DNA of 64,000 bases. It comes from a bacterium (lineage in GTDB: Bacteria > Vulcanimicrobiota > Xenobia > Xenobiales > JADMJV01). How positions within the stretch are numbered: position 1 is the stretch's first letter; each line of letters begins with the position of its first letter. Of the stretch, positions 1,154-56,441 are shown piece after piece. The notes beneath the pieces were generated by a model. That model did not search any database. It saw only the letters and a list, made by a program, of their open reading frames with translations, and was not told the DNA's origin. The stretch is from the NCBI GenBank assembly GCA_018266105.1, contig JAFEBA010000042.1, positions 22,216 to 86,215 of the forward strand, given 5' to 3'. The position numbers were made by a program, and so were the translations under genes.

Positions 1154-3475
1154 TTGAGACGACGAATACCCAGGTCACTTCGTGCGGTGCTGGTTTTGCT
1201 GTCGGTCTGCCTTTCTATGCTGGCCCTGGACTCGAGCCGCCATTGCCCTCCAACCCAGGAGTTGGCTTACCAGCGCCCGATCCAGGCCTATTTGCGGGCC
1301 ACCTGGCCGGGCTCTCAAGTTCAGATTCTGCAGAGCGCCCCTTTGCGCGTGCTGGTGACTGTGCCGAACGACCCTACTCCGGTACGCGTCGATCTGAACC
1401 AGGTCCTGGCTGAGTTGCCTGAAACAAGCAGATTGGTGATTCAAGGCCAGAGTCCGTGGCGGTCTGAGCCCGAAATGCTCTGGGCGGGCGCCCTGATTGC
1501 CGGCCTCGTCTCCCTGGCCGGGCTGATCAGACTGCCCAAGCCAACTCCCCGACCCCATCAGCAGGCCTTGCGTCAGGCCTGCATCGTTCTCTCTGAGTTT
1601 CCAATTGAATATCGCGACAATTGCCTGAAGTCACTGAAAGCGGCCCAGGCCGGATGGCTGAAAAAGGGCCTTGAGGCCCTTAAGAGCGTCACCGAGGCCG
1701 AACGCCAGCGGGTCAAGGTGGCTTTTCATGTTGAAGTGGCCCACATGCGGCGCCAGTCGGGCACCCCAAAAGACCACTCCCCTCCTGATCACCAGTTGAC
1801 AGCGCGCATTCTGCAACAGAATTATCTGTCAGGTGGCCCGGGCCCCCAGCCAGTAACCAAAGAAAACCCGCTTCGTAGAAGTAGCCGCAGCCGCCGCCGA
1901 ATCTTTGCCTGTGAGGTCTGTGACGAGGTTTTCATCGACGAAGAAGGCCTGCGCCGCCATGAACCGACCCACCTCGGCAAGCCCCTCATTCTCCCACCCC
2001 AGTGGAATCGGGTGCGTGCCGGGATTGGTCTGACGCTGCTGGCCGCCTTCACCTATCTACACCCCTGGCCAGCCCGCCCGACTCAACTGGTCCTGCCTCA
2101 GGCCCGCGACTTGAGCGTTCGTGAGCAAACCCTGGTCGATCAAGCCGAGCAACTTGCGGGGGGCAATCTGGTGGTCTTGCGGACCCAGACTCGCCTGGTG
2201 CTGGCTTGCTCTCCGCTCGACCAGCCCGCGCTGCAATCTCTGGTCGAGCAGTATTCACCCGGAGTCTTGGTGAGGCCGGTGGCTCCGACTCCCTGGCGCT
2301 GGCTGCCCGCCGCCCAATTGGTCTTAGGGCTTGGTTTGCTCTGGGCCGGACGCCCCCGCTCCCGGCCGGTCCTACCGCAGGTTGCCCCAGCTCAACCCTC
2401 CCTCCCGCCCGCAGCGCAGCCAGAGCCAGTTGCCTCAGCCCGGCCGGCTTCTCAACCGGTATTCGAATTGAAACCCCCGCCCGAACTCTCGGTCGAAGTC
2501 AGCCTGAACCTGGCCGAGTTGAAACCAAAGTTTCAGGCTCGAACCGAGGCCATTACGCAACACATGGCCAGCGAGCTTGGACTGGCCCTGGGAGAAATTC
2601 CCTACGAAGTCGGGGTCGGTCTGAACAACCAGGAATACATCCTTCGCTGGCGAGGAATCCCGATGGCCCGAGGCACGATTTTTGTGGATCGTTACCTGAC
2701 CATCGGACCGCTGGAGAAACTTCAATACTTGAGGGGCCTGGAAGCGCAAGATCCGGTCCATAGGATGCCCGGCAAGTGGATTTTCCGAGAACAAATCGGG
2801 GATGCAGAACGGCTCGGTTGCCTGACGATGGACCCGATTTCCGTGCTGGCCATGCACCTGACCGAATTGATTCGTGCACAGGCCGGCAGTTTGTTTTCCC
2901 TGGAGCAGGTCAAGATTTTGCTGGAACACGAGCAGCTTCGAGTTCTGGCCCAAGACCTGGCCGAACGCGGGGTAGACCGTCTGGTCATCTGGAGGAGCTT
3001 ACGCCTGTTGCTGGACGAAGGGGTGAGCATTCTCAACCTGGTGACCATTCTGGAGGCCTTCACCGAGAATCTACACCTCAGCCGGGAACCCATCAGGCTG
3101 GTTGAATTTGCCCGCCAAGCCCTGGCTGACCAGATCTGCCGAGAACACCTCAGTCCTGAAGGGCGTTTGAACGTGATCACGCTCGAGCCCGTCCTTGAAC
3201 AGATGCTTCAGCAAACGGGTTTTGGCGGTCAGGAGGACAGACTGGTCTTTGAACCGGATCTGGGCTACCGACTCCTGGAAGCCTTGAGCGCCCGCGTTGA
3301 CAGCGTCCAGGATCTTGGGTTGGAACCCATCCTGCTTTGTCCACCTGAACTCCGTTCAGGATTGCGCCAGCTCATCCGCCGCAATATCCCGCAACTGGTC
3401 GTGCTGTCCTGGAATGACATCGCCACTTGGGTCGACGTCAATGGAGTGGCTCAAGTCTGCTTGGACCCGACCTGA
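1154..3475 (+). CDS. membrane protein with C-terminal FlhA/SctV-type cytoplasmic domain, no FHIPEP export-gate domain, and an internal C2H2 zinc-finger motif
   Basis: TTG start. Four predicted TM helices (aa ~11-25, 108-126, 287-303, 386-399). C2H2 motif FACEVCDEVFIDEEGLRRHEPTH at nt 1904-1972. The last ~330 aa align colinearly with FlhA C-terminal landmarks: DPVHRMPGKWI, SVLAMHLTELI, SLRLLLDEGVSILNLVTILEAF, LRQLIRRNIPQLVVLSWNDI. Confidence 0.8.
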   Translation: MRRRIPRSLRAVLVLLSVCLSMLALDSSRHCPPTQELAYQRPIQAYLRATWPGSQVQILQSAPLRVLVTVPNDPTPVRVDLNQVLAELPETSRLVIQGQSPWRSEPEMLWAGALIAGLVSLAGLIRLPKPTPRPHQQALRQACIVLSEFPIEYRDNCLKSLKAAQAGWLKKGLEALKSVTEAERQRVKVAFHVEVAHMRRQSGTPKDHSPPDHQLTARILQQNYLSGGPGPQPVTKENPLRRSSRSRRRIFACEVCDEVFIDEEGLRRHEPTHLGKPLILPPQWNRVRAGIGLTLLAAFTYLHPWPARPTQLVLPQARDLSVREQTLVDQAEQLAGGNLVVLRTQTRLVLACSPLDQPALQSLVEQYSPGVLVRPVAPTPWRWLPAAQLVLGLGLLWAGRPRSRPVLPQVAPAQPSLPPAAQPEPVASARPASQPVFELKPPPELSVEVSLNLAELKPKFQARTEAITQHMASELGLALGEIPYEVGVGLNNQEYILRWRGIPMARGTIFVDRYLTIGPLEKLQYLRGLEAQDPVHRMPGKWIFREQIGDAERLGCLTMDPISVLAMHLTELIRAQAGSLFSLEQVKILLEHEQLRVLAQDLAERGVDRLVIWRSLRLLLDEGVSILNLVTILEAFTENLHLSREPIRLVEFARQALADQICREHLSPEGRLNVITLEPVLEQMLQQTGFGGQEDRLVFEPDLGYRLLEALSARVDSVQDLGLEPILLCPPELRSGLRQLIRRNIPQLVVLSWNDIATWVDVNGVAQVCLDPT

Positions 3476-3557: not shown

Positions 3558-4031
3558 ATGATCGCCAGCTTCACATCCTTCCACCACTCCAGTATCACCC
3601 AGCCCTATGAGCAGGCTAGCGCTGGAATTCGCACCCTCAAACAGATCGACGGCACCCCTGGCGACCGCAATCCGGCACCCAACGCCATTTCCATGTCAAC
3701 CTCCCAAGGTCAACTTGACGCAGTCATTCTAACCAACCCCGATCAATCGAATACCGTGGTTCAGAGACTCAGCAAAAAGTCGGGAGAGGTCGTCACATCC
3801 TGGCTGGAAGTTCCACAAAAATCCGACTGGGTTCCCAACATGAGCGGATTTGAAGTCAGCCAGAGTCTGATCGGTCTGCATGGCCTGGCTCTCGGAGTAC
3901 GGGAAGGCTGGACCCCCGGCGGGTTGGGCATTCCCAATCGCAGCTACGAAAACCAGATTATGTCCTCGGCCGAGGCCCAAAACGCCCTGATGCGCGCCGA
4001 GTCGGTGCTGGCCGCCTACCCGATCCTCTAA
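3558..4031 (+). CDS. hypothetical protein (157 aa), no signal peptide, Ser/Thr/Gln-rich N-terminus
   Basis: First ATG of ORF 3297..4031 lying downstream of the preceding gene's stop (3475). No recognisable domain. Confidence 0.5.
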   Translation: MIASFTSFHHSSITQPYEQASAGIRTLKQIDGTPGDRNPAPNAISMSTSQGQLDAVILTNPDQSNTVVQRLSKKSGEVVTSWLEVPQKSDWVPNMSGFEVSQSLIGLHGLALGVREGWTPGGLGIPNRSYENQIMSSAEAQNALMRAESVLAAYPIL

Positions 4032-7243: not shown

Positions 7244-7909
7244 GTGCACGAAGCCTGGCTTGCCACCCTGAATCATTCCGAATGGGCCGAACAACTGCGC
7301 GTGCGATTGCGTGTGGGCCGGACCGATCTGGATGACCTGATCGCCCAGGGCCCGCCTGTGGCGGCATGGCAGCAATGGTTATCCTCGCGTTGCCCGGATC
7401 AAGCCCGGCAAATGCTCACACATGATCACGAACTGCACTGCCAGTGGCAAAACCAACACGCTGCGCGGGGTAACGTTCTCGTGCCTCTGACCCGAATTGA
7501 CGATTACCTTTGGCGTGGCCCTCAACCAGACGAGAGCATCCAGGAAAAGATCCCTGACCTGAAAGCCCTGATCAACCTTCGTCCCGAGGATCGGCGCAGC
7601 CAGGAACTATCGAAACAACTCGGACTGGACTACCTTCACGTTCCAGTTCAGGACATGTCCGTACCCAGCCCCGCCCAGGTTCAGGACTATCTGGCCTACT
7701 GTGCCAGCCTCACCGGTCCGGCCCTGGTCCACTGCTTTGCGGGCCAGGGGCGCACCGGGTTGTTCGTGGCCGCTTACCGCATCTTCCGAGGCCACGACCC
7801 TGAAAGCGCCATCCTCCTGACCAACCAGGAGACCGGGCTCAAGGGGATGCGGCCCTGTCAGGCCCAATGGATCAGAGAGAACGGCCACCTGTGCATCCCT
7901 TCGAAGTAA
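7244..7909 (+). CDS. protein-tyrosine / dual-specificity phosphatase-like protein (CX5R)
   Basis: GTG start. P-loop VHCFAGQGRTGLF (HCxxGxxRT). Upstream DDYLWRGPQP...LINLRPE resembles Siw14/Oca-type tyrosine phosphatase family members. Confidence 0.75.
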   Translation: MHEAWLATLNHSEWAEQLRVRLRVGRTDLDDLIAQGPPVAAWQQWLSSRCPDQARQMLTHDHELHCQWQNQHAARGNVLVPLTRIDDYLWRGPQPDESIQEKIPDLKALINLRPEDRRSQELSKQLGLDYLHVPVQDMSVPSPAQVQDYLAYCASLTGPALVHCFAGQGRTGLFVAAYRIFRGHDPESAILLTNQETGLKGMRPCQAQWIRENGHLCIPSK

Positions 7910-18033: not shown

Positions 18034-19812
18034 ATGAATTTGAAAGTCACCCCAGCCAAAGCAGTTTGGTTTGCCGTCCGGTTGACCGCAGTCATTGTCG
18101 CCAGCTTTCTGCTCAGCAGCAAAATCGCTCCGCTATGGAACCACTGGGTCGGAATCAGTGGCCGGGCAGCTGGTCTGGGGAGCGGCCTTGTGCTGATCAT
18201 GGTGGTGGTACTGGCGATCCCGGCATGGCTGGCCGGTTTCCTGCGGCGGCGCCTAACAAAGCTCTCCAGCCTCACCTGGATTGCCGTCTGGAATCTGGCC
18301 CTCAGCATCCTCCTGCTTCGAACTGGAAGCAACTTGCACAGCCACGGGAGCTGGCTGCTAGGCCAGACGCTGGGAACTGGACATCCGTTGGTGCTCGCCT
18401 TTCAGAATTGGCTGGGCTGGGGCGCTGGCGAATCCGAGCCCGGCCCGATTCCCCTGGCTGCTCCTTCAACCCCAACGCCATCGCACACCCCAGTCTGGAG
18501 AGAAACTCCCCAACCCAAGCCATCCCCCGCTCCCGACAGCCAACCGCCCCTTCGTCCGGCCGGCCCTCTGGAGCTGAAGGGTGGTCTGGTGCTGGTACCT
18601 GCCGAAACCACATCCACGCCGACCCCTGAACCTGCAGGGAAATCAGCCAACCACGCCTGGCGACTGGGAATCGTTACATCCTCAGAGTCTTCCCTTCGCA
18701 ATGGTTTCCCAGCCTCGACGGAGGAGGTCGAATTGATCTGTAACTTGGATGGATTCGCCGAACCGGATTCGGCCCGCCTGGAAGTGACCTGGTCCAACCA
18801 GCAAGGATTCAACCACCGAGAGCAGGTCGTGGCCTCCAGGACCAGAGTGGAACTGAAGCTACGGCGTCCAGACGGAGGCTGGGTCAGCGACATTCCCTAC
18901 GGCGTGGAAGTCAAAGTGGACGGTCGTCATGCTGCAAGCTACCGTTTTAGCTTCCCCTCTCAAGAGCGAGACCAGGTCGTCTTTTCCTTCTTCGCCGCCA
19001 TCCGCCGCGGAGACCGTTCTGCAGTCAGGCTCAGTCTGAAGCGGGACCCGAGCCTGGCAAACGCTGTGGGTCCGAACAATGTCGGCGCGACCGAACTGTC
19101 GGAATGCCAGGCCCGGGGAGACTACGTCAGCCCGCTCAACCTGGCCATTTCGAATGGTCAGGGCGAAATCGCTCGTATTCTCATCTCGGCCGGGGCCGAC
19201 GTGAATCAGCCTGCCGGGATCCACGCCATGACTCCACTCCTGGAGGCCGCTTCCAAGTCCGACTCGGAACTGCTGGGAGCCCTGCTGGAGGCCGGTGCAT
19301 CCCCCCAAGCGCAAGAAGCTCTGCAGTTGAGAAGCGCTTTGGACTATGCCGCCGAGAGCGGGCAGGTTGAGAACGTTCGCAAACTGCTGAAAGCGGGGGC
19401 GGACCCAAACTGGTTCATGATCCCGAGCAAAGACCGGCTCAATCCAGCCCGGGTCGCCGCGCTCGTCAAGAACCGTGAAATGGCGGAGTCCAAACATCTG
19501 GAATGTCTCAAACTACTGCTAGATGCCGGATCGGAGCCTCCACCCCTGGCCCCCTATTGCGAGGAGTGGGGGTCCAGCAAGATATTGAAGGAACTGCTCG
19601 CGCGAGGAGCCGACCTGGAAGCGGGCAAAACCGATGGCGACAAGGCCCTTTGGAGGGCAGTCTACCTGGGGCGGGCCGATCAGGTGGAATTGCTGTTGGC
19701 AGCGGGGGCAAAAACCTCCCTCGTCGTGGATGGCAAGCCTCTGCAGGAATGGGCACGCCAATCCAAGATCGATTCCCAGAAGAAGCTGGCCTTATTGGAG
19801 CAAAAAGGATAG
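18034..19812 (+). CDS. membrane-anchored ankyrin-repeat protein
   Basis: ATG preceded by GGGAG. About 4 N-terminal TM helices, a Pro-rich linker, and C-terminal ANK repeats (SPLNLAISNGQGEIARILISAGADVN; TPLLEAASKSDSELLGALLEAGASP; ALDYAAESGQVENVRKLLKAGADPN). Confidence 0.8.
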   Translation: MNLKVTPAKAVWFAVRLTAVIVASFLLSSKIAPLWNHWVGISGRAAGLGSGLVLIMVVVLAIPAWLAGFLRRRLTKLSSLTWIAVWNLALSILLLRTGSNLHSHGSWLLGQTLGTGHPLVLAFQNWLGWGAGESEPGPIPLAAPSTPTPSHTPVWRETPQPKPSPAPDSQPPLRPAGPLELKGGLVLVPAETTSTPTPEPAGKSANHAWRLGIVTSSESSLRNGFPASTEEVELICNLDGFAEPDSARLEVTWSNQQGFNHREQVVASRTRVELKLRRPDGGWVSDIPYGVEVKVDGRHAASYRFSFPSQERDQVVFSFFAAIRRGDRSAVRLSLKRDPSLANAVGPNNVGATELSECQARGDYVSPLNLAISNGQGEIARILISAGADVNQPAGIHAMTPLLEAASKSDSELLGALLEAGASPQAQEALQLRSALDYAAESGQVENVRKLLKAGADPNWFMIPSKDRLNPARVAALVKNREMAESKHLECLKLLLDAGSEPPPLAPYCEEWGSSKILKELLARGADLEAGKTDGDKALWRAVYLGRADQVELLLAAGAKTSLVVDGKPLQEWARQSKIDSQKKLALLEQKG

Positions 19813-19835
19813 CCGCTGGGAAGGGGTGCATTTAT

Positions 19836-21368
19836 TTGGATCTATTCGTAGCAATAGAAAGCAACAATGTTTCGGAAGTGGATCGTCTACTCCAGGCCGG
19901 CCTTGACGCGAACACACGCAGGGGTCAGATGACTGCGCTCATGCAAGCTGCCTCTCAGGGGCGAATGGAAATCCTAGAAACTCTGCTGCGCTGCGGAGCT
20001 GATCCACAAGCAACCGACTCGGACGTCGCGCGCGTTGGCCTCAAACGAATGGCCCAATTTGGTGGCAAAGATTGCCTCAGAGACGAGGCCCTCGGGCATT
20101 GCGCTCTGTTTGTTGCCGCCCGCCACGGTCAGGCCGCGGTGATTTCCCGCTTAATTCAGGCGGGGGCCGACCCGAATCGACGAGACTTCTTGGACGAAAC
20201 CCCGTTGATCTGGGCCGCCGAGGGGGGTCATCAAGAGGCTATCGCCGCGTTGCTGCTGGGCGGCGCCCGGCCCGATTCCAGAACTTTGATGGCTGCACTG
20301 GAAAAAAAACATCCAGAGTGTGCACTCGATTTGCTTCAGGCCGGAGTCTCACCCGATCAGAAGGCCCTGGTCCAGGCTGCCGATCTGGCCGATGCCCGCC
20401 TGCTGGAGAAGATGCTTGCACTCCAGCCCAAGCTGAAGACAGGCAAAGCCCTGGCACCGATCGCCTACGCTACTCGCACGGTCCCAGCGGCGGAGGCCCC
20501 ACCTGGCCGCTGGCCGACGCTATTGAATCAGAGCGGCTGGTTTAAACGAGTGCCGGAGCCCGAAGAGAAAATTCTTGAGGCTGTGGAAGTGCTTCTGAGG
20601 GCGGGCGCTCCCGTGAATGAAATCAGCTCAGTCGGTCCGGCCCTGTACGTCGCCGCTCAACAGGGCCTGACTTGCCTGGTGCGGCGGCTGCTCGAGGCCG
20701 GAGCCGACCCGCGTCTGGCCTACCGAGATCGTACCCCGCTCGAGGTCGCTCGGCTTCTAGGTCACGAGGAGATCGCGCGGCTATTAGGCGACGACGCTGC
20801 AGTTCCACCGCAGCCAGCCCTCCCGACCGCCCGCACACCGGGGACTGGCAAAGAACTGCAGCAGCCTTGCTTCCCAGAGTTCCCCGAAATTCCGGAACTC
20901 GAGGCGATCTGTGGCTCGCTCAGCTCCCAGCCGGACTACCTGAGGGGAGGGCGCGAAATCCGTTTGTCCAGGCCGGTTGACCTGCTGGCTCTACAACGCC
21001 ATTGGCGAACACAGGGCATCTACCTTTTCCACCCGGGCGACGAGACTTTACTGGCAGCCATCCCCGCTGACCATTGGCGAGTGGCCGTTGCCCTGATGCA
21101 GACCAACGGCGCGAACTGGGACCTGAACCCGAGCGACGTGGTGAGCTGGCTCGAGAAGCTTGAGAAAAAGCAGCCGTTCGAATTGTCAAACATCACTCGC
21201 GACCGGCTTGAAGGCGCCTTCCAGACACCCATCGCCGAACCCGAACGTCTGGCTCAAAGCATGTATCAATTTTGTCCCGACATCGTAGACCAGGGATGCG
21301 GCTCCCTGGAAGTGCTGGTTCAGGAGCTGAAAAAGGCTCCTGCAACTCTTTTCCTCTGGTGGGACTGA
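19836..21368 (+). CDS. ankyrin-repeat protein with DUF4253-like C-terminal domain
   Basis: Probable TTG start after the upstream stop; the ORF is open from 19503. ANK repeats (TALMQAASQGRMEILETLLRCGADP; ALFVAARHGQAAVISRLIQAGADPN; TPLIWAAEGGHQEAIAALLLGGARP). The C-terminus ends ...CPDIVDQGCGSLEVLVQELKK..TLFLWWD, which I recall as typical of DUF4253. Confidence 0.7.
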   Translation: MDLFVAIESNNVSEVDRLLQAGLDANTRRGQMTALMQAASQGRMEILETLLRCGADPQATDSDVARVGLKRMAQFGGKDCLRDEALGHCALFVAARHGQAAVISRLIQAGADPNRRDFLDETPLIWAAEGGHQEAIAALLLGGARPDSRTLMAALEKKHPECALDLLQAGVSPDQKALVQAADLADARLLEKMLALQPKLKTGKALAPIAYATRTVPAAEAPPGRWPTLLNQSGWFKRVPEPEEKILEAVEVLLRAGAPVNEISSVGPALYVAAQQGLTCLVRRLLEAGADPRLAYRDRTPLEVARLLGHEEIARLLGDDAAVPPQPALPTARTPGTGKELQQPCFPEFPEIPELEAICGSLSSQPDYLRGGREIRLSRPVDLLALQRHWRTQGIYLFHPGDETLLAAIPADHWRVAVALMQTNGANWDLNPSDVVSWLEKLEKKQPFELSNITRDRLEGAFQTPIAEPERLAQSMYQFCPDIVDQGCGSLEVLVQELKKAPATLFLWWD

Positions 21369-42349: not shown

Positions 42350-43531
42350 ATGATTTTCCTCTCCCAACTTCTCTACCGCAAGCTCCCCGGTGGTGGCAAA
42401 ATTCAGGACTTTGCCTACGACCCGCTGGACGAAGATGACTATCCGAAGGTGCAGCGCGTCTTGCTCAACGATGGACAGTCGTATGGGTGGAACGGCCTGA
42501 ACACAGTCCCATCGGTCTGCTCTCACCCCCTTCCTGAAGACTGGGTCCTGCTGAGGCGCGATGTGCAGGACGGGATGATTCTGGACCTGAAAAATCGTTC
42601 CGGCACCCGAGCCAACGACCTTCTGCTGAACAATGACGGAGAAACATGGCGTATCGCGGGGGTCGACACCGGCCTGCGGGCACTCCTGAGGCGCCTGACG
42701 CGAGGCAGATTTGGTCGAGGCGGCTCGCGCAAGCACTGTCTGGACTGGAAATACGTCGAATTTCTGCGCGGGCTTCCGCAGCTGGTGCCCGAAGAGCCGG
42801 CTTACCAGGGTAAAATCAGGCGCCTTCCGGCGGGAGATATCGCCGCCCTAACAGACGTGGTGTCATATCTGCATGCAGCCGAACTGCTCATGCTGCTGGA
42901 TGAATGCACGGCCACCTCGGTCTTTCAGAGTCTGCAGCCTCAGCGCCAGGTACAAATCCTGGGCGAACTCAGTTCGCGACGCCAGGGCGCTATCCTGAAC
43001 CTGATGTCACCGGACCTGGCCTGCGAGCTCCTGTCCCGATTGGGCGTCCAGGAGAGCGAACGGCTGCTCCCGGGGGTAGAATCTGAGCAGCGGGAACGGC
43101 TACTCGAGCTACTCCGCTACCCAGCCCACCTGGCCTCGGGACGCATGACCAACGACCTGCTCACCCTGCCTTGCGACGCAACCGTAGCCCAGGCCCGCCA
43201 GGCTTTCGCCCAACGAACGCCCCGATTCAATCATTACGTTTACCTGGTCAACCAGAGAGGCGAGCTGACCGGCATGCTGACCAGCGCCCAACTGATTGGG
43301 GCGGAGAAAATGGACCAACCTCTCAACGAACTGGCCACGAGCTATGTCAACGCCATCCCAGCCGACCAGTCAGCCCGCCTGGCTGCCTACGAGGTGCTTC
43401 GCAGCCAACTGCCAGCCCTGCCGGTGGTGGGCAACAAGGGAGAACTGCTGGGAGCGCTGACCGTAGACCTGGCCATGGACACGGTCCTGCCTCCTGCACT
43501 CGGCAGCCAGATGCCCAGGATCTTCGCCTGA
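42350..43531 (+). CDS. soluble MgtE-N-like plus CBS-pair protein (no transporter domain)
   Basis: LHAAELLMLLDECTATSVFQSLQPQRQVQILGELS...LMSPDLACELLSRL resembles the MgtE N-domain. Then a CBS pair (MTNDLLTLPCDATVAQA...YVYLVNQRGELTGMLT; LPALPVVGNKGELLGALT). No TM helices. Confidence 0.7.
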   Translation: MIFLSQLLYRKLPGGGKIQDFAYDPLDEDDYPKVQRVLLNDGQSYGWNGLNTVPSVCSHPLPEDWVLLRRDVQDGMILDLKNRSGTRANDLLLNNDGETWRIAGVDTGLRALLRRLTRGRFGRGGSRKHCLDWKYVEFLRGLPQLVPEEPAYQGKIRRLPAGDIAALTDVVSYLHAAELLMLLDECTATSVFQSLQPQRQVQILGELSSRRQGAILNLMSPDLACELLSRLGVQESERLLPGVESEQRERLLELLRYPAHLASGRMTNDLLTLPCDATVAQARQAFAQRTPRFNHYVYLVNQRGELTGMLTSAQLIGAEKMDQPLNELATSYVNAIPADQSARLAAYEVLRSQLPALPVVGNKGELLGALTVDLAMDTVLPPALGSQMPRIFA

Positions 43532-48782: not shown

Positions 48783-49829
48783 GTGAACATCCAATCCACA
48801 CAAAACCGCTTTCAGCCCCCAGCTCCAAAACCGGCGACTCCCGAGCCGGACAAAATACCACCTCTGGACGTGGTCGCTATCGGCGCTCTGGACACCGGAA
48901 CGGGATGGACCGGAATCAATAAGCCCATCCGCGTGACCGACCCCAAGGATCCGAACTCGGCTTACGTAGCCAAGAATAATACCGACGGTGCATTCATCAG
49001 CCTTCATCCCCACCACGATACACGCAAAGACAATATCACCGAAATTGTGATGTCGCACATCGTGGCTGACGAATTTAAAATGCCCTCGCTCACCTTTCGT
49101 GAAGGCAACCTGGTCACACCCGATGGACGCAAATCGCAGGTCGTGCTCAGCCCCTTGCGCACCGACTTCAAAACCCTCGAGCACGTGGCCGTGGAAGAGA
49201 TCAAGGACGGCGACCAGGCCGTGGCCTTAACCGTGCTTCAAGGGGGCCTGCTGGGCGACTGGGACTCCACCTTTAACGACAGCAACCTTTGGGTTCGCAA
49301 CGACGGGGTCGCAATGGGGGCCGATTATGGCTACGCCGGCAAACCGGGCATCAGCTGCCTGGGCGTGCCTTTCGCCAACATCAAAATTATGAAGGCTTTT
49401 GCCAATCGCGAAAACGTCACCAGCATCAGCGACCGCATCAAGAATCTCAGCGATGAAGAGATTCAGGCTATGGTGGAACGCCAGGGCAGCAAGTGGATTC
49501 GGGACTGGAATCCTCAGATCTCCAAAGAACTTTCCGATAACCTCATTTCCAATCGCAACCGGATGCGCCAGCACAACCCGTTTCTAAAATACGTAGAGGG
49601 CTTCCATCCGGGCCTCAAAGGTCCACTGCTGCATTCCAAATATCCAGCTTTCTTCTGGAAATGCAGCCAGGCTGAGGCGCCGCCCTTGAACCGACCGGAC
49701 CAATGGCTGGACGTACTGATTGCCGTGAGCAAATACAAAAAATCCGAGACCATGGCGAAATTCTTCACCTACATGCGGTCCCAGGTGCAGTCGCCTGAAG
49801 AGAAGGCGGCTGAGGCCAAAAAGGGTTAA
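48783..49829 (+). CDS. atypical protein-kinase-fold protein (hypothetical)
   Basis: GTG start 6-7 nt after AGAGGGA. Candidate kinase landmarks in the right order: AYVAKNN (beta3 Lys), EIVMSHIV (alphaC Glu), LLGDWDSTFNDSNLWV (D-x-D...N catalytic loop), GADYGYAG (DFG-like). Confidence 0.6.
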   Translation: MNIQSTQNRFQPPAPKPATPEPDKIPPLDVVAIGALDTGTGWTGINKPIRVTDPKDPNSAYVAKNNTDGAFISLHPHHDTRKDNITEIVMSHIVADEFKMPSLTFREGNLVTPDGRKSQVVLSPLRTDFKTLEHVAVEEIKDGDQAVALTVLQGGLLGDWDSTFNDSNLWVRNDGVAMGADYGYAGKPGISCLGVPFANIKIMKAFANRENVTSISDRIKNLSDEEIQAMVERQGSKWIRDWNPQISKELSDNLISNRNRMRQHNPFLKYVEGFHPGLKGPLLHSKYPAFFWKCSQAEAPPLNRPDQWLDVLIAVSKYKKSETMAKFFTYMRSQVQSPEEKAAEAKKG

Positions 49830-52123
49830 TGCAAATGCACATCACGCGCCTGACCAACCCCAGCCTGCCTCTCCGACGACTGCCCGCGCCCGCTCCCGGG
49901 TCGACCGACAAGGTCGAGCTGGGTGGAAGAACGACTCCCCTCGAACTGATCAAGGCACAGATCCCCTGCCCCAGACAGGATCCCAAAGATCCTCGCTTTG
50001 GCCTGGCCTGCTCAGCTTTCCTTCGCCCCGATCCCTTCTTTAGCGAGACCACCCGGTTGGTGGTGCACGCCGGGCGAACCGGCAACAACCCCAATGGGGT
50101 GATCGAGCTGCCGACTAGCAAACTGAACATGATTGCCACCGATCAGCTTCTCAGCCGAAAGGACCAGGTGCTGCTTGGTTTCGGCAGTCCGCGAGTGAGC
50201 CTGCTCATTCCCGGCCAGAATGGCTACCAGCGTCTCCAATCGTCACCGTTCTTTAGCAAGAAGTCACGTATCATTTCGGGCGAGACCATTCAGTCCGGGG
50301 TCTTCATCCGACCCCGCAACCTGCCAGCCGAGGCATTGCAGGCCTTGACCAAAGCCATGAACGAGCAGGTCGGCCAACGCAGCATCAGCTCGGCCAGGGC
50401 CAATGCCGAAGTGCTCAGCCAGGCGGGGTTCACCTCAGGTGGACGCAAGCTGAGCGGAAAGCTGCTGCCCTTTCGGCTCTTTCGCCAGATCGCGCAAAAG
50501 GGGCTCGAATTTCAGGGCCGGCCGGTTGCCTTCGACATCATCAGCACCAATAATAAAAGCCTGGACGACCACTTCCGCAAGGTCATCGGTCAGGAGCTGC
50601 ATAGTCCCTTTGACCCAAAGGTGGATCCGGAGGTCCCGGCTCCCAACGCGACCAACGCCTACCCAGATCCCTGTCAGCCTTCCGACCCTAACGCCCCTCA
50701 GGTGCGCATCCGCAATTCTCGGCCGGGCCTGGTTGGCAGTAGCCTGCGCTCGCTGCTGGGTGCCCACATCCTGTGGGAAGCTTTGCCCGACCCTAAGCTG
50801 GCTGACATCAACCAGTTTCTTCCTCAAGTGCTCAAGGACAAATTCCACGACGACAAGCCCCTGACGCGCGGAGAGAAGATCAAGTCCATCATCTTCAAAC
50901 CGGCGGTGGTCAGCTTCTTGCGCAAAAACATGGCCAAAGCCTTTGATGATGGGGGTCAGTTCGCCCCCAGACAGCTTGCCTCGATGCTTCGGGTTGCCGG
51001 TGAGGGTGAAGAGGTCCAGGCCGATTCCAAGGGGCGCATCAAATACAACCTGGTGATCTGCGGAGATCAGTCTCCGCGGGGAACGCACATCACCATCGCT
51101 CGCCTGAACGTCAAAAACAACGACTCGAAGGCCGATGATGTGCTCTCCAAACATGTACTGCTGGCCGGCTATGATCCGGATGTTCGCTTTGCCGGCGAAT
51201 GCTGGGCCGAACGCTACTCTCAATCTGACGGCAGCCAGGCCGTGCGCATCCACGTCAACAACAACTCGGGAACCTACCGTCCCAATGGACAGCAGGCGCA
51301 GGCCGCTGGCGAATTTCTGCGCAAGGCTCTACCGGGAGTGGAGATCGTGGTTCATGAGACCACCCCTCCCCCACCCACCGGCAAGCCCGATTACCTGCGC
51401 ACCTATGCGGTCTCGCCAGACCAGGCCACCGCCTTGCGAGGTCTGGCCGGCCAGAAGGTGACGCTCAACGGCGAGGAATACAAAATCCATCAGTTCAAGA
51501 CGGTCGAGTTCGATACCGAATTCTATGACACAGGCGACCGCAAATTGCTTAACGGTGGCGGAATGCTTCGCTCCCGCACCCGCTATAAGCCAGGCACCGA
51601 CCAGGTCAAAACCATCGACATCGAATCCAAACTGCCGCCGGCTCAGCCAGGTCCTTTTCAAGACCGGGCCAAGGGGTTTAGCTTTGACTCCATGGAGGAG
51701 TGGAAGGCCCACCAAACCTGGGTTCTCAGTCCGGAAAGCACGGACGAAGCCGTGGGCTTCGCTCGAACCATGGCGGGTGATGGTCGGCTGGAGGCGGTGG
51801 CTTGCAAGCACTCCATGCGGGAACTGTTCCTGTTAACTCCCAGTCAGCGCTGGTTCGGCTTTTTCAAGCCCCAGTTCATCCTCAGTCTGGACACCAACAG
51901 CATGCGCGCCCCGGGCCTGCCACGCCCTCAGCAGCCGGGAGCGGACACCTACCAAGTGCTCACCCCCCAGGCATTCACAAAACTGCCCTGGACCAAAAAG
52001 GTCGAACCAGAGCGAATCGATCAGCTCAATGACCTGTGTCGGCAGCTCTCACAAAAATTCCAACTCCAGGAGGTGGGCATGTCCCCTTACGCTGAGGGCA
52101 TGGCTCACTGGAAGAAAGGCTAA
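49829..52123 (+). CDS. large hypothetical protein (764 aa) with CYTH-like C-terminal region
   Basis: The ATG overlaps the upstream stop (TAATG). The C-terminal ~230 aa contain VEFDTEFYDTGDRKLLNGGGMLRSRTRYK, resembling the CYTH beta-strand pattern (D.Y.DT....L...g..LR.R). The N-terminal and central regions are unassigned. Confidence 0.65.
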   Translation: MQMHITRLTNPSLPLRRLPAPAPGSTDKVELGGRTTPLELIKAQIPCPRQDPKDPRFGLACSAFLRPDPFFSETTRLVVHAGRTGNNPNGVIELPTSKLNMIATDQLLSRKDQVLLGFGSPRVSLLIPGQNGYQRLQSSPFFSKKSRIISGETIQSGVFIRPRNLPAEALQALTKAMNEQVGQRSISSARANAEVLSQAGFTSGGRKLSGKLLPFRLFRQIAQKGLEFQGRPVAFDIISTNNKSLDDHFRKVIGQELHSPFDPKVDPEVPAPNATNAYPDPCQPSDPNAPQVRIRNSRPGLVGSSLRSLLGAHILWEALPDPKLADINQFLPQVLKDKFHDDKPLTRGEKIKSIIFKPAVVSFLRKNMAKAFDDGGQFAPRQLASMLRVAGEGEEVQADSKGRIKYNLVICGDQSPRGTHITIARLNVKNNDSKADDVLSKHVLLAGYDPDVRFAGECWAERYSQSDGSQAVRIHVNNNSGTYRPNGQQAQAAGEFLRKALPGVEIVVHETTPPPPTGKPDYLRTYAVSPDQATALRGLAGQKVTLNGEEYKIHQFKTVEFDTEFYDTGDRKLLNGGGMLRSRTRYKPGTDQVKTIDIESKLPPAQPGPFQDRAKGFSFDSMEEWKAHQTWVLSPESTDEAVGFARTMAGDGRLEAVACKHSMRELFLLTPSQRWFGFFKPQFILSLDTNSMRAPGLPRPQQPGADTYQVLTPQAFTKLPWTKKVEPERIDQLNDLCRQLSQKFQLQEVGMSPYAEGMAHWKKG

Positions 52124-52127
52124 GACC

Positions 52128-53450
52128 ATGAAGATTCAATCACTGCCGCCTGTCCGGCCACTGCCCCAAATCAGCATCCTGCATTCCCCCCAACCAGTGA
52201 GCTCGGACGAATATCAGCCCGGCCCCCGCGAACGCTGCAAAAGCGCCATTGGCAAACTGGGCGCCGGAATCGGTCTGACCGGGATCGGTGGCCTGGGCTA
52301 CGCAATGGGCGCGGCCATCGGGCACCCACTGGCCGGCAGCCTGGTGGGCGGAGCGCTGGGCACCGTCATCGGAACCCTGGTTGGCCACAAACTGGCCGAC
52401 AAACTGCATCCGGCAGGCAAGCAACCCCTGAAGTCCAGCCAATGGACCGACCCCACCCCGAGCACTTCGGAGAGCGTGGCCGCTATGAAAGCCGGCATCA
52501 GCGAGTTGCAAAATACCCTGCTGGCCTCGGGCCAGATATCCAAACTGGACCGGGGATTCCACCAGAAACAAAACTGGGGAGGCAAAGCCCACATCGAGTT
52601 TAATGCCGACCTGGCCCCTGAACTGCGCTCGGGCTTGCTGGCCAATCTGGCCGGCCAATCTGTGACCAGCGCCGTGCGCTTTTCGAACGGTCAGGGCTGC
52701 CCCTTTCACGACTCCAAGGCCGACGCTCGCGGTATGGCCGTGAAGATGAATGTCGACGGTCAGCAGGCCGATCTGCTGGCTACCGACCACATCACCTTTG
52801 CTCGCAACCCCGTGCAATTTATGAAGTTCGCCAAGGTGGCGGCCCTGATGCAGACCAAAGGGCCGCTGTCCGCTCTGGGTGCGGTCATCCGCAACACCGT
52901 GCACGGTGACTTTAAGGCAGCCGAGGCTCTGAGGATCATGGCGACCCTGATCCGCGACACCAGCGGCGGCATTGAGCATCCGGCCGCCAAGACCTACTGG
53001 ACTCAGGCCCTTCATGTGGGCGACCTGACCGGTCGCTTTGTGTTCAGCCCCGAAAGTGGGGCCAACACAAAGCCTCCCCGCTTCGGCAAAGACCCCAACT
53101 ACTTGCGCAAAAACATGGAGACGGATCTCTCACATGGACCGGTCTCGATGAAGATCGGGTTCGAAGCCTTCACCGAAGACAGTGCCTCCCGCGACGCTTC
53201 GCAGCACGGCCAACACATCACCCTGCCGGTCGGCCGGCTGGTCATCGAGCAGCGCCCGTCGCAAGGACGTGAGGCCGAGGAGCAACTGGTATCGAGGATG
53301 CAGTTCAACCCGGCCAACGGCTTTGATATGGCCGGGCCCTTGAACGAAAGCAACCGAGCTGAAATCTATCGACAGAGCGCGACCAATCGAGGCGCCCTGG
53401 ACTGGTCCGCCCCGGAAGTTCAACAATTTTTTGCAAAGAAGGCCCCATAA
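52128..53450 (+). CDS. catalase-related haemoprotein (mini-catalase) with N-terminal glycine-zipper segment
   Basis: ATG 8-9 nt after GAAAGG. Catalase landmarks in order: RGFHQKQ (distal His), AVRFSNGQG, DARGMAVKM, NRAEIYRQSATNRG (proximal Tyr). N-terminal GAGIGLTGIGGLGYAMGAAIGHPLAGSLVGGALGTVIGTLVG. Confidence 0.8.
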   Translation: MKIQSLPPVRPLPQISILHSPQPVSSDEYQPGPRERCKSAIGKLGAGIGLTGIGGLGYAMGAAIGHPLAGSLVGGALGTVIGTLVGHKLADKLHPAGKQPLKSSQWTDPTPSTSESVAAMKAGISELQNTLLASGQISKLDRGFHQKQNWGGKAHIEFNADLAPELRSGLLANLAGQSVTSAVRFSNGQGCPFHDSKADARGMAVKMNVDGQQADLLATDHITFARNPVQFMKFAKVAALMQTKGPLSALGAVIRNTVHGDFKAAEALRIMATLIRDTSGGIEHPAAKTYWTQALHVGDLTGRFVFSPESGANTKPPRFGKDPNYLRKNMETDLSHGPVSMKIGFEAFTEDSASRDASQHGQHITLPVGRLVIEQRPSQGREAEEQLVSRMQFNPANGFDMAGPLNESNRAEIYRQSATNRGALDWSAPEVQQFFAKKAP

Positions 53451-53451
53451 C

Positions 53452-55788: not shown

Positions 55789-56441
55789 ATCCCACACCGG
55801 CAAACGGCCTCAGGCAGGAGCATTCTCCGCAACTGAGAAACTCTTCCTCAAGATCCGCTGAATCCAAGCTTCTTCTCGAGGGCGCCTGGCTTTGCCGAAA
55901 GAGGTGCCCCTTGTCCCACGAAGACCCTTCCTATGCCCCTGGTTCCGTTGTTTATGAGCCGTTCCTAGGCCTTTGTACAGTGGTCAGCTGCAATCTGGAA
56001 ACCATGTTGGGATGCCAACAGCTTTTCTATGAGATCCGGCCCCGTCAGGGAGCGGCCGTGGTCAAGGTTCCCGCCGCACAAATGGCCACCCGAGGCATTC
56101 GGCCCTTAATGTCGGCACAGCAAATCGAAGAGACTCTCAACCGGGCCCAAACCTCTCAGTGGGAGGAAACTGAAGAGAATTACTCACTTCGGCTGCGCCG
56201 CTGGAATCAACTGTTGCGCTCAGAACAGAAGTCCGGGGGCTATGACTTTCTGAGCGAGTGGCATCATCTGGTGGCTCATGGAGTCCGGCTAACCACCCAG
56301 GAGACGGAACTGCACGGAAAGATCCAACGTTCGCTGCTTCAGGAAATAGCCCAGGTCTTGCAAATTTCGCCGAACAAGGCCAGTCTGAGGCTGAGCCGTT
56401 GTTGGGATAACATCAAGAAACCCAAGGAAAAGAAGAAATAA
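55785..56441 (+). CDS. CarD/CdnL family RNA-polymerase-binding transcription regulator-like protein
   Basis: PGSVVYEPFLGLCTVVS...FYEIRP...VKVPAAQMATRGIRPLMS matches the CarD_CdnL_TRCF N-domain pattern. The TTG at 55785 overlaps the upstream TGA (TTGA). An alternative TTG at 55911 is preceded by AAGAGG. Confidence 0.7.
   Translation: MNPTPANGLRQEHSPQLRNSSSRSAESKLLLEGAWLCRKRCPLSHEDPSYAPGSVVYEPFLGLCTVVSCNLETMLGCQQLFYEIRPRQGAAVVKVPAAQMATRGIRPLMSAQQIEETLNRAQTSQWEETEENYSLRLRRWNQLLRSEQKSGGYDFLSEWHHLVAHGVRLTTQETELHGKIQRSLLQEIAQVLQISPNKASLRLSRCWDNIKKPKEKKK

What the first reader, a model, noticed from the sequence alone, without database searches (positions are those of the whole stretch)
1154..3475. 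Orphan FlhA/SctV cytoplasmic domain on a non-FHIPEP scaffold carrying a textbook C2H2 zinc finger
Seen in sequence:
- The C-terminal ~330 aa (nt ~2465-3472) are colinear with the cytoplasmic ring domain of the flagellar/type III export-gate protein FlhA/SctV. The match runs down to the terminal ...PQLVVLS motif.
- The conserved 7-8-helix FHIPEP membrane domain is absent.
- The N-terminal 400 aa instead hold four predicted TM helices.
- Those helices bracket two mutually similar ~80-aa segments (aa ~30-107 and ~304-385), predicted on the side opposite the FlhA-like domain.
- They also bracket a loop predicted on the same side as the FlhA-like domain. It contains FACEVCDEVFIDEEGLRRHEPTH, a perfect match to the classical consensus F-x-C-x2-C-x3-F-x5-L-x2-H-x3-H.
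- No other flagellar or injectisome gene is visible in the 64 kb.

Established knowledge: FlhA_C forms the nonameric docking platform for chaperone-substrate complexes.

Inference: this may be a repurposed substrate-docking ring or sensor, possibly linked to the signal-less effector-like proteins in this region.
Basis: partly seen in the sequence, partly recalled or inferred. Interest (0 to 1): 0.75.

Follow-up and report, generated by a model that had tools for sequence, protein, structure and literature searches.

The report
FlhA docking domain on new scaffold
This gene is an intact, fast-evolving extra copy of the cytoplasmic docking domain of the flagellar export protein FlhA, moved onto an unrelated four-helix membrane scaffold that also carries a FliG-like domain and a classical zinc finger; it belongs to a small undescribed family in uncultured Vulcanimicrobiota bacteria that also have normal flagellar genes.

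Summary
The ORF (1154-3475, +, 773 aa) is real. Its C-terminal ~330 aa form a complete FlhA_C domain (Pfam FHIPEP E=3e-55, profile positions 322-654 only; Foldseek TM 0.91 to Salmonella FlhA_C). The FHIPEP membrane domain is absent.

The N-terminal half has four TM helices, two periplasmic αββαβ units and a C2H2 finger. The two units share no detectable sequence similarity.

Five relatives exceed the Pfam cutoff, and the family profile hits only FliG in the PDB (E=6e-8).

About a dozen diverged relatives from independent Vulcanimicrobiota (Eremiobacterota) assemblies share the architecture, so it is neither an artefact nor a pseudogene (ω≈0.3). It evolves much faster than its neighbours: 45% versus 70-89% identity to a syntenic genome.

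It is not an orphan. Genomes with family members, including the window's closest relative, carry ordinary flagellar export operons, and the FlhA_C derives from that lineage's own FlhA.

My inferred function is a membrane-anchored docking or sequestering accessory of the flagellar export pathway, not an export gate. No link to effector-like genes was found. I rate it a new variant of a known kind.

The parts
1154..3475 (+). Whole gene, 773 aa: a composite FlhA_C fusion protein (TTG start; an alternative GTG start lies at 1187)
   Evidence: ORF list. Public gene calls of 762 and 773 aa. Orthologue alignment.
1172..1237 (+). TM1 (aa 7-28), preceded by an RRR tail on the cytoplasmic side
   Evidence: Hydropathy. 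AF2 helix. Charge distribution.
1253..1444 (+). Periplasmic unit 1 (aa 34-97), predicted αββαβ; the best-conserved part of the N-terminal scaffold
   Evidence: AF2 secondary structure. Family alignment A6. No PDB or Pfam match.
1469..1525 (+). TM2 (aa 106-124)
1559..1822 (+). Cytoplasmic five-helix bundle (aa 136-223): a diverged FliG N-terminal-like domain ending in the invariant D-x3-L-x3-YL helix
   Evidence: pLDDT 80-90. Pfam FliG_N above cutoff in relatives P0016, P0020, P0015, P0018 and P0092. The family profile hits only FliG in the PDB, best 5tdy_B at E=6e-8. The window clade against the FliG_N-positive clade gives hhalign probability 97.7%, E=1.6e-12. The window copy alone has no Pfam hit.
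1874..1972 (+). Arg-rich run plus a single classical C2H2 zinc finger (aa 241-273; C253, C256, H269, H273)
   Evidence: Pattern read from the sequence. ββα fold in the model. Sub-threshold Pfam C2H2 hits, at threshold in P0087. The same module is 77-79% identical in other Vulcanimicrobiota membrane proteins.
2003..2059 (+). TM3 (aa 284-302)
   Evidence: AF2 helix. Hydropathy is weaker here.
2084..2278 (+). Periplasmic unit 2 (aa 311-375), predicted β-αββαβ
   Evidence: Domain-only AF2 model, pLDDT 84. No significant structural neighbour: best E=0.16, weak BON and KH-like hits.
2291..2347 (+). TM4 (aa 380-398)
2348..2485 (+). Pro-rich disordered linker (aa 399-444). It stands where FlhA_L lies in canonical FlhA; the FlhA_L-like sequence is not recognisable in the window clade.
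   Evidence: pLDDT below 50. Alignment with canonical FlhAs.
2486..3457 (+). FlhA_C cytoplasmic domain, four subdomains (aa 445-768)
   Evidence: Residues at the Salmonella D456/F459/T490 positions are D533/H536/M567. The glycine of the GYXLI switch motif is replaced by Ser, followed by a 5-aa deletion.
3558..4031 (+). Downstream 157-aa ORF of unknown family. It lies immediately after the fusion gene; whether it belongs to the system is unproven.
   Evidence: 87% identical to the gene in the same position in L008. No Pfam hit. Not found next to other family members.

Best explanation
What it is (shown): a member of a small, undescribed protein family restricted to a clade of uncultured Vulcanimicrobiota (Eremiobacterota).

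The family arose when the cytoplasmic domain of the lineage's own flagellar FlhA was duplicated and grafted onto a new membrane scaffold. That scaffold has four TM helices bracketing two small periplasmic αββαβ modules. Its cytoplasmic loop carries variable inserts: a FliG_N-like domain and a single C2H2 zinc finger with an Arg-rich lead-in. The predicted topology puts FliG_N, the finger and FlhA_C in the cytoplasm.

How it most likely works (inferred): it lacks the FHIPEP ion-conducting membrane domain and has no FliPQR/FlhB partners nearby, so it cannot be an export gate.

I propose it is a membrane-anchored accessory of the resident flagellar type III export system. FlhA_C would dock or sequester the cytosolic clients that normally bind FlhA_C: export chaperone-substrate complexes and/or FliH-FliI-FliJ. 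This domain's most conserved part is the SD2/SD1 region around the chaperone-binding dimple. Where present, the FliG_N-like insert would bind the C-terminal tail of the MS-ring protein FliF, as FliG_N does.

The net effect would be to tune or gate flagellar assembly, as a decoy, buffer or checkpoint, possibly in response to envelope signals read by the periplasmic modules. The role of the zinc finger, in protein or nucleic-acid binding, is open.

The window copy is one of the most derived members. It may dock without the open-close cycling that export requires.
For: - FlhA_C identity and completeness.
- No FHIPEP TM domain.
- Conserved architecture: about a dozen diverged relatives (24-46% identity) from independent Logan, NCBI, JGI and ENA assemblies.
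- FliG_N-like insert.
- Origin from the lineage's own FlhA: the family groups with Xenobia-type canonical FlhAs and shares their QRGDAERLGCM and LSWNEI motifs.
- SD2, which holds D456/F459, is the most conserved subdomain: 0.64 identity within the family and 0.71 family-to-canonical, against 0.33 for SD3. Dimple residues are D/Y/T in canonical FlhAs and in most family members. The dimple's role in substrate recognition is from PMC9431611.
- Co-residence with ordinary flagellar export operons: ACE_ERE1 and GCA_046327835.1, the syntenic sister genome.
- Purifying selection: ω≈0.3 overall and below 0.55 in every domain, with an intact frame.
- Loss of the Gly of the GYXLI switch in the window/P0011 clade. 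That switch is needed for export-coupled open-close motion (PMC9431611). This fits a non-exporting docking role.
Against: - No binding, oligomerisation or expression data exist. The mechanism rests on domain homology.
- In the window copy two of the three dimple residues differ (H536, M567). The FlhA_L segment that stabilises the nonamer (PMC8213127) is not recognisable. FliG_N is below Pfam detection. Chaperone binding, ring formation and FliF binding are therefore all uncertain for this particular protein.
- The gene evolves 3-5 times faster than its neighbours (dN 0.51 against 0.08-0.22). That could reflect relaxed constraint.
- The gene is never linked to flagellar genes.
- Whether the window's own genome has flagellar genes could not be checked. 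That genome is not in the genome collection.
- Some members lack FliG_N (P0087, L047) or the finger (P0018, L047), so those inserts are not essential to the core function.
Confidence: 0.4

Rival explanations
1. One reading: an independent substrate-docking ring, or sensor, serving non-flagellar cargo such as the eukaryote-like, signal-less proteins encoded in the region.
For: The window encodes two ankyrin-repeat proteins, an animal-type haem peroxidase, a DSP phosphatase and a Ser/Thr kinase. A NolX-family gene lies about 8 kb upstream of the orthologue in L008. FlhA_C is a known docking platform.
Against: No export channel, ATPase or chaperone genes lie near any family member, and no neighbour is conserved across subfamilies. 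The NolX gene is absent from the window's contig at the syntenic place. The FlhA_C is closest to the lineage's flagellar FlhA, and the FliG_N insert points to the flagellar MS ring.
Confidence: 0.1
2. A transmembrane signalling protein or membrane-tethered regulator. The periplasmic modules sense an envelope or external cue, or FlhA_C senses the state of the export-substrate pool. The Arg-rich C2H2 finger then binds DNA, RNA or a regulator to change gene expression.
For: The same Arg-rich C2H2 module (77-79% identical) heads other single-pass membrane proteins of the phylum that have an extracytoplasmic C-terminal domain. That layout resembles membrane-tethered regulators. The two periplasmic modules are conserved in all members. 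Two-component genes lie near some members.
Against: The finger sits only about 10 residues from TM3, which leaves little reach for DNA. It is a single finger. It is absent in P0018 and L047. No output domain is known, and no target was identified.
Confidence: 0.15
3. A 'poison' or modulatory subunit that co-assembles with canonical FlhA_C in mixed rings and alters the specificity or activity of the export gate.
For: It has the same fold as, and a recent common origin with, the resident FlhA_C. It coexists with that protein in the same genomes.
Against: SD3, the principal ring-contact subdomain as I recall it (not checked in a paper here), is the part least conserved between the family and canonical FlhA (0.33). 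FlhA_L is lost in the window clade. A foreign 4-TM scaffold with periplasmic domains is unlikely to fit inside the MS ring around FliPQR (inference).
Confidence: 0.08
4. A functionless, decaying by-product of domain shuffling.
For: It has the fastest amino-acid divergence in its neighbourhood (45% against 70-89%). The window copy has lost several canonical FlhA_C hallmarks. It is rare and phylogenetically narrow.
Against: The 773-codon frame is intact. The architecture is kept across relatives as far apart as 24-30% identity. ω is about 0.3 overall and below 0.55 in every domain. AF2 models the domains with confidence.
Confidence: 0.1

Closest known systems
Flagellar FlhA (FHIPEP family; TIGR01398), specifically the canonical FlhA of Xenobia-type Vulcanimicrobiota
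   Same: It has the complete four-subdomain cytoplasmic domain (FlhA_C), at 35-40% identity to the lineage's FlhAs. It shares their lineage-specific motifs and the C-terminal PQLVVLS.
   Different: - It has no FHIPEP 8-TM ion-conducting domain.
- It is not in a fliPQR-flhB-flhA operon.
- The FlhA_L linker and the GYXLI glycine are not conserved in the window clade.
- Two of the three dimple residues are changed.
- It evolves far faster: canonical FlhAs are 75-99% identical across the lineage, whereas family members are 24-46% identical.
Injectisome SctV (TIGR01399)
   Same: The cytoplasmic domain has the same fold (Foldseek E≈1e-17 to 1e-18 to YscV and CdsV).
   Different: The sequence match is weaker than to FlhA (87 against 188 bits). 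No injectisome genes are nearby. The membrane-domain differences are the same as for FlhA.
FliG N-terminal domain (PF14842), which binds the FliF C-terminus (PDB 5tdy)
   Same: The family's cytoplasmic loop matches FliG_N positions ~3-62. All top PDB hits are FliG.
   Different: Only the first ~60 positions of the ~104-position profile are matched. There are no FliG middle or C-terminal domains. The domain is embedded between TM helices of a membrane protein. The window copy is too diverged for direct detection.
Classical eukaryote-type C2H2 zinc finger (PF00096)
   Same: It has the spacing C-x2-C-x12-H-x3-H with the F/L core, and a predicted ββα fold.
   Different: It is a single finger inside a bacterial polytopic membrane protein, about 10 residues from a TM helix. 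Its Pfam score is below threshold in the window copy.
BON domains (BonA, DolP, OsmY) and other small periplasmic αββαβ modules, including the ring-building motifs of FliF/SctJ
   Same: They share the αββαβ secondary-structure order and a periplasmic location. BON proteins are among the weak Foldseek hits.
   Different: There is no significant structural or sequence match (best E=0.16). FliF/SctJ ring-building motifs were not among the top 50 hits.

Membership tests
FlhA/SctV (FHIPEP family export-gate protein) | N-terminal FHIPEP membrane domain (~8 TM helices with conserved charged residues and the FHIPEP loop) | tested here: not met
   The Pfam FHIPEP match covers only profile positions 322-654 of 657. 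TIGR01398 matches only positions 343-678 and scores 188 bits against a cutoff of 772. The N-terminal half has four unrelated TM helices.
FlhA/SctV (FHIPEP family export-gate protein) | Four-subdomain cytoplasmic domain (FlhA_C/SctV_C) | tested here: met
   E=5.6e-39 to 3mix. Foldseek TM 0.91 and E=1.4e-23 to 6ch2_C, with alignments of ~335-350 columns. pLDDT 80-94.
FlhA/SctV (FHIPEP family export-gate protein) | Encoded with the other export-apparatus genes (fliPQR/flhB or sctRSTU) | tested here: not met
   None in the 64-kb window and none next to any family member. Canonical copies in the same lineage are in such operons.
FlhA/SctV (FHIPEP family export-gate protein) | Conserved chaperone-binding dimple (Salmonella D456, F459, T490) | tested here: inconclusive
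   The window has D533, H536 and M567. Most family members and all lineage canonical FlhAs have D, Y and T.
FlhA/SctV (FHIPEP family export-gate protein) | GYXLI switch motif with an invariant Gly (Salmonella G368) | tested here: not met
   The lineage's canonical FlhAs have GRGLL. The window has SLNLA and P0011 has SPTLT, each followed by a 5-residue deletion. Other family members keep the Gly. The motif's role is from PMC9431611.
FlhA/SctV (FHIPEP family export-gate protein) | Nonameric ring stabilised by FlhA_L binding the neighbouring protomer | not testable with these tools
   No multimer prediction is available. An FlhA_L-like sequence (PES..L.QVD) is kept in P0016, P0018, P0020, P0160 and L047 but is not recognisable in the window, P0011, P0013 or P0014. 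The role of FlhA_L is from PMC8213127.
FliG N-terminal domain (PF14842) | Profile match above the curated threshold | tested here: inconclusive
   The window copy has no Pfam hit. Relatives are above the 25-bit cutoff: P0020 50.7, P0016 37.6, P0015 31.0, P0092 26.7 and P0018 25.6. A family profile that includes the window hits FliG only (E=6e-8). The window clade is homologous to the FliG_N-positive clade (hhalign E=1.6e-12).
FliG N-terminal domain (PF14842) | Binds the C-terminal helices of FliF | not testable with these tools
   This needs biochemistry or complex prediction. My idea that the invariant DPxLxARxLxxxYL helix is an in-cis FliF_C mimic found no support.
Classical C2H2 zinc finger (PF00096) | C-x2-4-C-x12-H-x3-5-H spacing with a conserved hydrophobic core | tested here: met
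   F251-x-C253-x2-C256-x3-F260-x5-L266-x2-H269-x3-H273, read from the sequence. C253, C256, F260 and L266 are near-invariant (≥90%) and H269 invariant across the family.
Classical C2H2 zinc finger (PF00096) | Pfam score above the gathering threshold | tested here: not met
   14.7 bits against 25.2 in the window. P0087 scores exactly 25.2, and the other members score 18.8-22.9.
Classical C2H2 zinc finger (PF00096) | ββα fold coordinating zinc | tested here: inconclusive
   The AF2 model shows E251-252, E259-260 and H263-272, but pLDDT is only about 66. Zinc binding cannot be tested here.
Ring-building motif (FliF/SctJ/SctD RBM) or BON domain | Significant structural similarity of the periplasmic αββαβ units | tested here: not met
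   The unit-2 model (pLDDT 84) has no hit below E=0.16. The weak hits are BON proteins and the KH-like domain of ribosomal protein S3, with no FliF or SctJ in the top 50. The unit-1 profile has no PDB or Pfam match.

The most novel reading that the evidence does not exclude
The family forms its own membrane ring: FlhA_C below the membrane and the periplasmic modules above it. Through its FliG_N-like domain this ring plugs into FliF. It would then act as a previously unknown checkpoint of flagellar assembly, storing or releasing chaperone-substrate complexes in response to envelope signals. The Arg-rich C2H2 finger would tether a regulator or flagellar mRNA at the membrane. That would be a new class of flagellar assembly regulator built from recycled basal-body parts, and the first functional classical C2H2 finger inside a bacterial secretion-related membrane protein.
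Probability: 0.1. Interest if true: 0.85.

Novelty: new variant of a known kind. Interest (0 to 1): 0.6.

Why it matters
FlhA_C/SctV_C is normally found only as the cytoplasmic half of the type III export gate. Here it has been detached from its ion-driven membrane engine and kept under selection on a different scaffold. Next to it sit a domain that normally belongs to the rotor protein FliG and a eukaryote-style zinc finger.

If the docking function is retained, this is a natural separation-of-function experiment: substrate docking without export. It could help dissect how FlhA_C recognises chaperones. It also shows how flagellar parts are exapted into regulators.

The finding further corrects the automatic annotation 'FHIPEP family type III secretion protein', which wrongly implies an export-gate protein.

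The practical reach is limited. The family is rare, confined to uncultured Vulcanimicrobiota, and has no experimental handle yet.

Tried and rejected
(1) Internal duplication of the two periplasmic segments. BLASTP gave no alignment and hhalign of family sub-alignments gave E=0.2. I rejected it as sequence similarity; only the predicted topology is shared.

(2) My hypothesis that the periplasmic units are FliF/SctJ-type ring-building motifs. A domain-only AF2 model plus Foldseek against the PDB gave no significant hit and no RBM proteins. The unit-1 profile had no PDB or Pfam match. Not supported.

(3) My idea that the invariant helix DPxLxARxLxxxYL mimics the FliF C-terminal helix bound by FliG_N. 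A short-profile search of the PDB found no FliF. I dropped it to an untested resemblance recalled from memory.

(4) Chimeric assembly or frameshift artefact. Rejected, because the same architecture occurs in independent Logan, NCBI, JGI and ENA assemblies.

(5) Pseudogene. Rejected.

(6) Searches that underperformed or failed. Word-index homologue searches with the protein and with the N-terminal profile recovered almost nothing beyond the self-hit; the exhaustive search was needed. Exact-protein look-ups for two other window ORFs failed, probably because of start-codon differences.

(7) Literature searches for this architecture, for Eremiobacterota flagella and for prokaryotic membrane C2H2 fingers found no description.
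Full report
**1. The observation**

Window 1154-3475 (+) is a 773-codon ORF with a TTG start. Public gene calls exist for a 762-aa version (GTG at 1187) and for the 773-aa version. The N-terminus of the closest orthologue aligns from the TTG start.

Pfam places one strong domain. FHIPEP scores E=3.1e-55, but only profile positions 322-654 of 657 align, to aa 434-758. NCBIfam FlhA (TIGR01398) aligns positions 343-678 at 188 bits, far below its full-length cutoff of 772. SctV models score lower.

Against solved structures the best match is B. subtilis FlhA_C (3mix, E=5.6e-39). All strong hits are FlhA or SctV cytoplasmic domains.

An AlphaFold2 model built on the family alignment has pLDDT 80-94 over aa 445-768. 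It superposes on Salmonella FlhA_C with TM-score 0.91 and E=1.4e-23. The alignment runs through PQLVVLS, which is identical in Salmonella.

The FlhA_C claim and the absence of the FHIPEP membrane domain are therefore confirmed.

**2. The N-terminal half**

Hydropathy and the model give this domain order:

| Element | Residues | Note |
|---|---|---|
| TM1 | 7-28 | |
| αββαβ unit 1 | 34-97 | periplasmic |
| TM2 | 106-124 | |
| five-helix bundle | 136-223 | pLDDT 80-90 |
| ββα finger | 251-272 | |
| TM3 | 284-302 | |
| αββαβ unit 2 | 322-375 | an extra strand lies at 311-313 |
| TM4 | 380-398 | |
| disordered Pro-rich linker | 400-440 | |
| FlhA_C | 445-768 | |

Basic residues cluster at the N-tail, after TM2 and after TM4. 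This fits an N-in topology with the bundle, finger and FlhA_C in the cytoplasm.

BLASTP gives nothing and profile-profile comparison gives E=0.2. They share only predicted topology.

I suspected they might be FliF/SctJ-like ring-building motifs. A domain-only model of unit 2 (pLDDT 84) has no significant structural neighbour. The best hit is E=0.16, and the weak hits are BON proteins and the KH-like domain of ribosomal protein S3. Unit 1 has no PDB or Pfam match. These modules are new at the sequence level and unassigned at the fold level.

**3. The zinc finger**

F251-x-C-x2-C-x3-F-x5-L-x2-H-x3-H273 fits the classical pattern, preceded by RRSSRSRRR. Pfam C2H2 scores are below threshold in the window (14.7 bits against 25.2). 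They reach threshold or nearly so in relatives.

The exhaustive search drew about 190 multi-finger proteins to aa ~245-276. The cysteines and H269 are invariant or nearly so in the family.

The same Arg-rich finger, 77-79% identical, opens a different ~345-aa single-pass membrane protein in four Vulcanimicrobiota MAGs and one metagenome. It is therefore a mobile cytoplasmic module of membrane proteins in this phylum.

**4.

In relatives the loop before the finger reads like FliG. Pfam FliG_N is above its 25-bit cutoff in five of them:

| Relative | FliG_N score (bits) |
|---|---|
| P0020 | 50.7 |
| P0016 | 37.6 |
| P0015 | 31.0 |
| P0092 | 26.7 |
| P0018 | 25.6 |

(All.)

A profile of this segment that includes the window hits only FliG chains in the PDB. 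The best is 5tdy_B, the FliG_N-FliF_C complex, at E=6.2e-8; Salmonella FliG scores 4e-7.

The window's own segment is too diverged for Pfam. It is nevertheless homologous to the FliG_N-positive members (hhalign probability 97.7%, E=1.6e-12).

The invariant following helix (D212, L220, Y224, L225) reminded me of the FliF C-terminal helix. A profile search did not recover FliF, so I make no such claim.

**5. It is a family, not an artefact**

Word-index searches found only the self-hit plus canonical FlhAs. An exhaustive phmmer of aa 1-437 against 1.84 billion representatives found P0011 (761 aa, 44% identity), P0013, P0014, P0016, P0018, P0020 and P0087, plus fragments. Later searches added P0160, L009, L047, L058 and L059.

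All full-length members have TM1-unit1-TM2-[loop]-TM3-unit2-TM4-linker-FlhA_C. The loop varies:
- P0018 lacks the finger.
- P0087 lacks FliG_N.
- L047 lacks both.
- Some members have two extra TM helices after TM2.

Members come from independent Logan, NCBI, JGI and ENA assemblies. NCBI labels them 'FHIPEP family type III secretion protein [Vulcanimicrobiota / Candidatus Eremiobacteraeota bacterium]'.

No paper describing the architecture was found.

**6. Origin and genomic setting**

A scan of 185,579 species-representative genomes with the family motif returned 42 loci. Nearly all are ordinary ~700-aa, 7-9-TM FlhAs of Vulcanimicrobiota, Xenobia (UBP9) or 'Ca. Bruticola' MAGs, 35-40% identical to the window's FlhA_C.

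In a distance tree the family groups with these canonical FlhAs, apart from outgroup FlhA/SctV, but on long branches. It shares their QRGDAERLGCM and LSWNEI motifs. The FlhA_C was therefore copied from the lineage's own flagellar FlhA.

Two genomes show coexistence with a normal flagellar system:
- MAG ACE_ERE1 holds two family members (L009, L047), a fliM-fliO-fliP-fliR-flhB-flhA operon (L010) and a second full-length FlhA outside a flagellar context (L041).
- GCA_046327835.1 holds P0011 in full synteny with the window. It also has a fliI-fliJ-...-fliK-flgE-fliM-fliN-fliO-fliP-fliQ-fliR-flhB-flhA operon on another contig.

So 'orphan' does not describe the biology, although the window itself and all other family loci contain no flagellar or injectisome genes.

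The only cultured member of the phylum, from a different class, lacks flagella (PMC9758169).

**7. Evolutionary tempo**

Between the window and the syntenic L008, eight neighbouring genes are 70-89% identical in protein. The fusion is 45%.

| Measure | Fusion gene | Neighbouring genes |
|---|---|---|
| Protein identity to L008 | 45% | 70-89% |
| dN (Nei-Gojobori) | 0.51 | 0.08-0.22 |
| ω (dS saturated at ≥1.1, so approximate) | ≈0.31 | 0.06-0.11 |

Every domain of the fusion stays below ω=0.55. Canonical FlhA is 75-99% identical across the lineage, whereas family members are 24-46% identical to one another.

The gene is constrained but evolves several-fold faster than its surroundings.

**8. 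Functional residues**

I used Salmonella T490M (6ai3) as a register check. The substrate-recognition dimple residues D456, F459 and T490 (role from PMC9431611) map to D533, H536 and M567 in the window. The lineage's canonical FlhAs and most family members have D, Y and T.

SD2, which holds the first two dimple residues, is the most conserved subdomain: 0.64 identity within the family and 0.71 family-to-canonical. SD3 is the least conserved against canonical FlhA, at 0.33.

The GYXLI switch reads GRGLL in this lineage. It keeps its Gly in most members but is SLNLA in the window and SPTLT in P0011, each followed by a 5-residue deletion.

The FlhA_L segment stabilises the nonamer (PMC8213127). 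It is recognisable in P0016, P0018, P0020, P0160 and L047 but not in the window clade.

The window copy is therefore among the most derived members.

**9. Interpretation**

Shown:
- domain composition and order;
- family conservation;
- lineage-internal origin of FlhA_C;
- coexistence with ordinary flagellar operons;
- fast but constrained evolution.

Inferred: without the FHIPEP engine and without FliPQR/FlhB partners it cannot export. Its two recognisable cytoplasmic modules both normally act at the cytoplasmic face of the MS ring: FlhA_C binds chaperone-substrate complexes and FliH/I/J, and FliG_N binds FliF_C. The conserved dimple region suggests that ligand binding is what selection preserves.

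I therefore favour a membrane-anchored docking or sequestering accessory of the flagellar export pathway, with confidence 0.4.

The rivals are:
- an independent cargo-docking ring for effector-like proteins (0.1);
- a transmembrane signalling or tethered-regulator role centred on the finger and the periplasmic modules (0.15);
- a modulatory subunit in mixed FlhA rings (0.08);
- a decaying by-product (0.1).

**10. Verdict**

The finding is a real, intact gene with an unusual architecture that is undescribed in the literature I could search. It is best filed as a new variant of a known kind: an exapted FlhA_C. It is not a member of the export-gate family in the functional sense, because it fails the membrane-domain, operon-context and switch-motif tests.

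I score interest at 0.6. A flagellar or T3SS specialist would be surprised by a FliG_N + C2H2 + FlhA_C membrane protein. However, the function is inferred, the family is rare, and it is confined to uncultured bacteria.

Noticed in passing
window 3558-4031 (+); L008 12387-12860: A 157-aa ORF directly downstream of the fusion gene is 87% identical between the two syntenic genomes, far more conserved than the fusion at 45%. It has no Pfam match. The longer ORF call (from 3441) overlaps the fusion's 3' end. It is not found next to other family members.
   Followed up: partly
L002 9986-11029, L004 9980-11017, L057 796-1854 (also L003, L005): The same Arg-rich C2H2 finger (RSRRKIFSCPVCDEVFIDEESLRRHELTH) opens a ~345-aa protein in several Vulcanimicrobiota MAGs. 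That protein has an acidic low-complexity linker, one TM helix and an extracytoplasmic C-terminal domain. It looks like a family of membrane-tethered zinc-finger proteins.
   Followed up: partly
L041 8834-10951; also L042, L043, L050: Several Vulcanimicrobiota MAGs (ACE_ERE1, SCN18_25_8_15_R3_B_62_28, bin.189_sub, SRP329715_co1_2) carry a second full-length ~700-aa FlhA paralogue. In ACE_ERE1 (L041), the one context examined, it lies outside any flagellar operon: its neighbours are DUF1152, a luciferase-like monooxygenase and unknowns.
   Followed up: partly
window 17980-21368, 53431-55788, 7244-7909, 57952-59421: The window encodes several eukaryote-like proteins: two adjacent ankyrin-repeat proteins (one with a C-terminal DUF4253), an animal-type haem peroxidase (E=3e-116), a DSP/PTP phosphatase of the polymorphic-toxin type, and a Ser/Thr kinase. 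This suggests a host- or prey-interacting lifestyle.
   Followed up: no
window 42350-43531 (+): A 393-aa protein has MgtE_N and CBS domains but no detected MgtE channel domain. MgtE_N and FliG domains are, as I recall, structurally related, so this is another free-standing FliG/MgtE_N-type module in the same genome.
   Followed up: no
L008 1131-4020: The syntenic relative has a NolX-family gene (a type III secretion-associated family) and an ATLF/M90-like peptidase gene about 8 kb upstream of the fusion. At the corresponding place the window's contig (L001 4194-5033) has only two small unknown ORFs.
   Followed up: no
L062 12091-12408: In GCA_046327835.1 a second FliQ-like gene (Bac_export_3, 105 aa) directly follows flhA, in addition to the fliQ inside the fliPQR cluster.
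   Followed up: no
P0092 (271 aa, probably from a truncated contig): This is a permuted relative. The C2H2 finger comes first, followed by a TM helix, a periplasmic segment, several TM helices and then the start of a FliG_N domain. The modules have been shuffled more than once.
   Followed up: no
window 48783-53450 and 55785-56441: A run of large ORFs (348, 764, 473 and 218 aa) flanking the haem peroxidase gene has no Pfam match at E≤1e-4.
   Followed up: no
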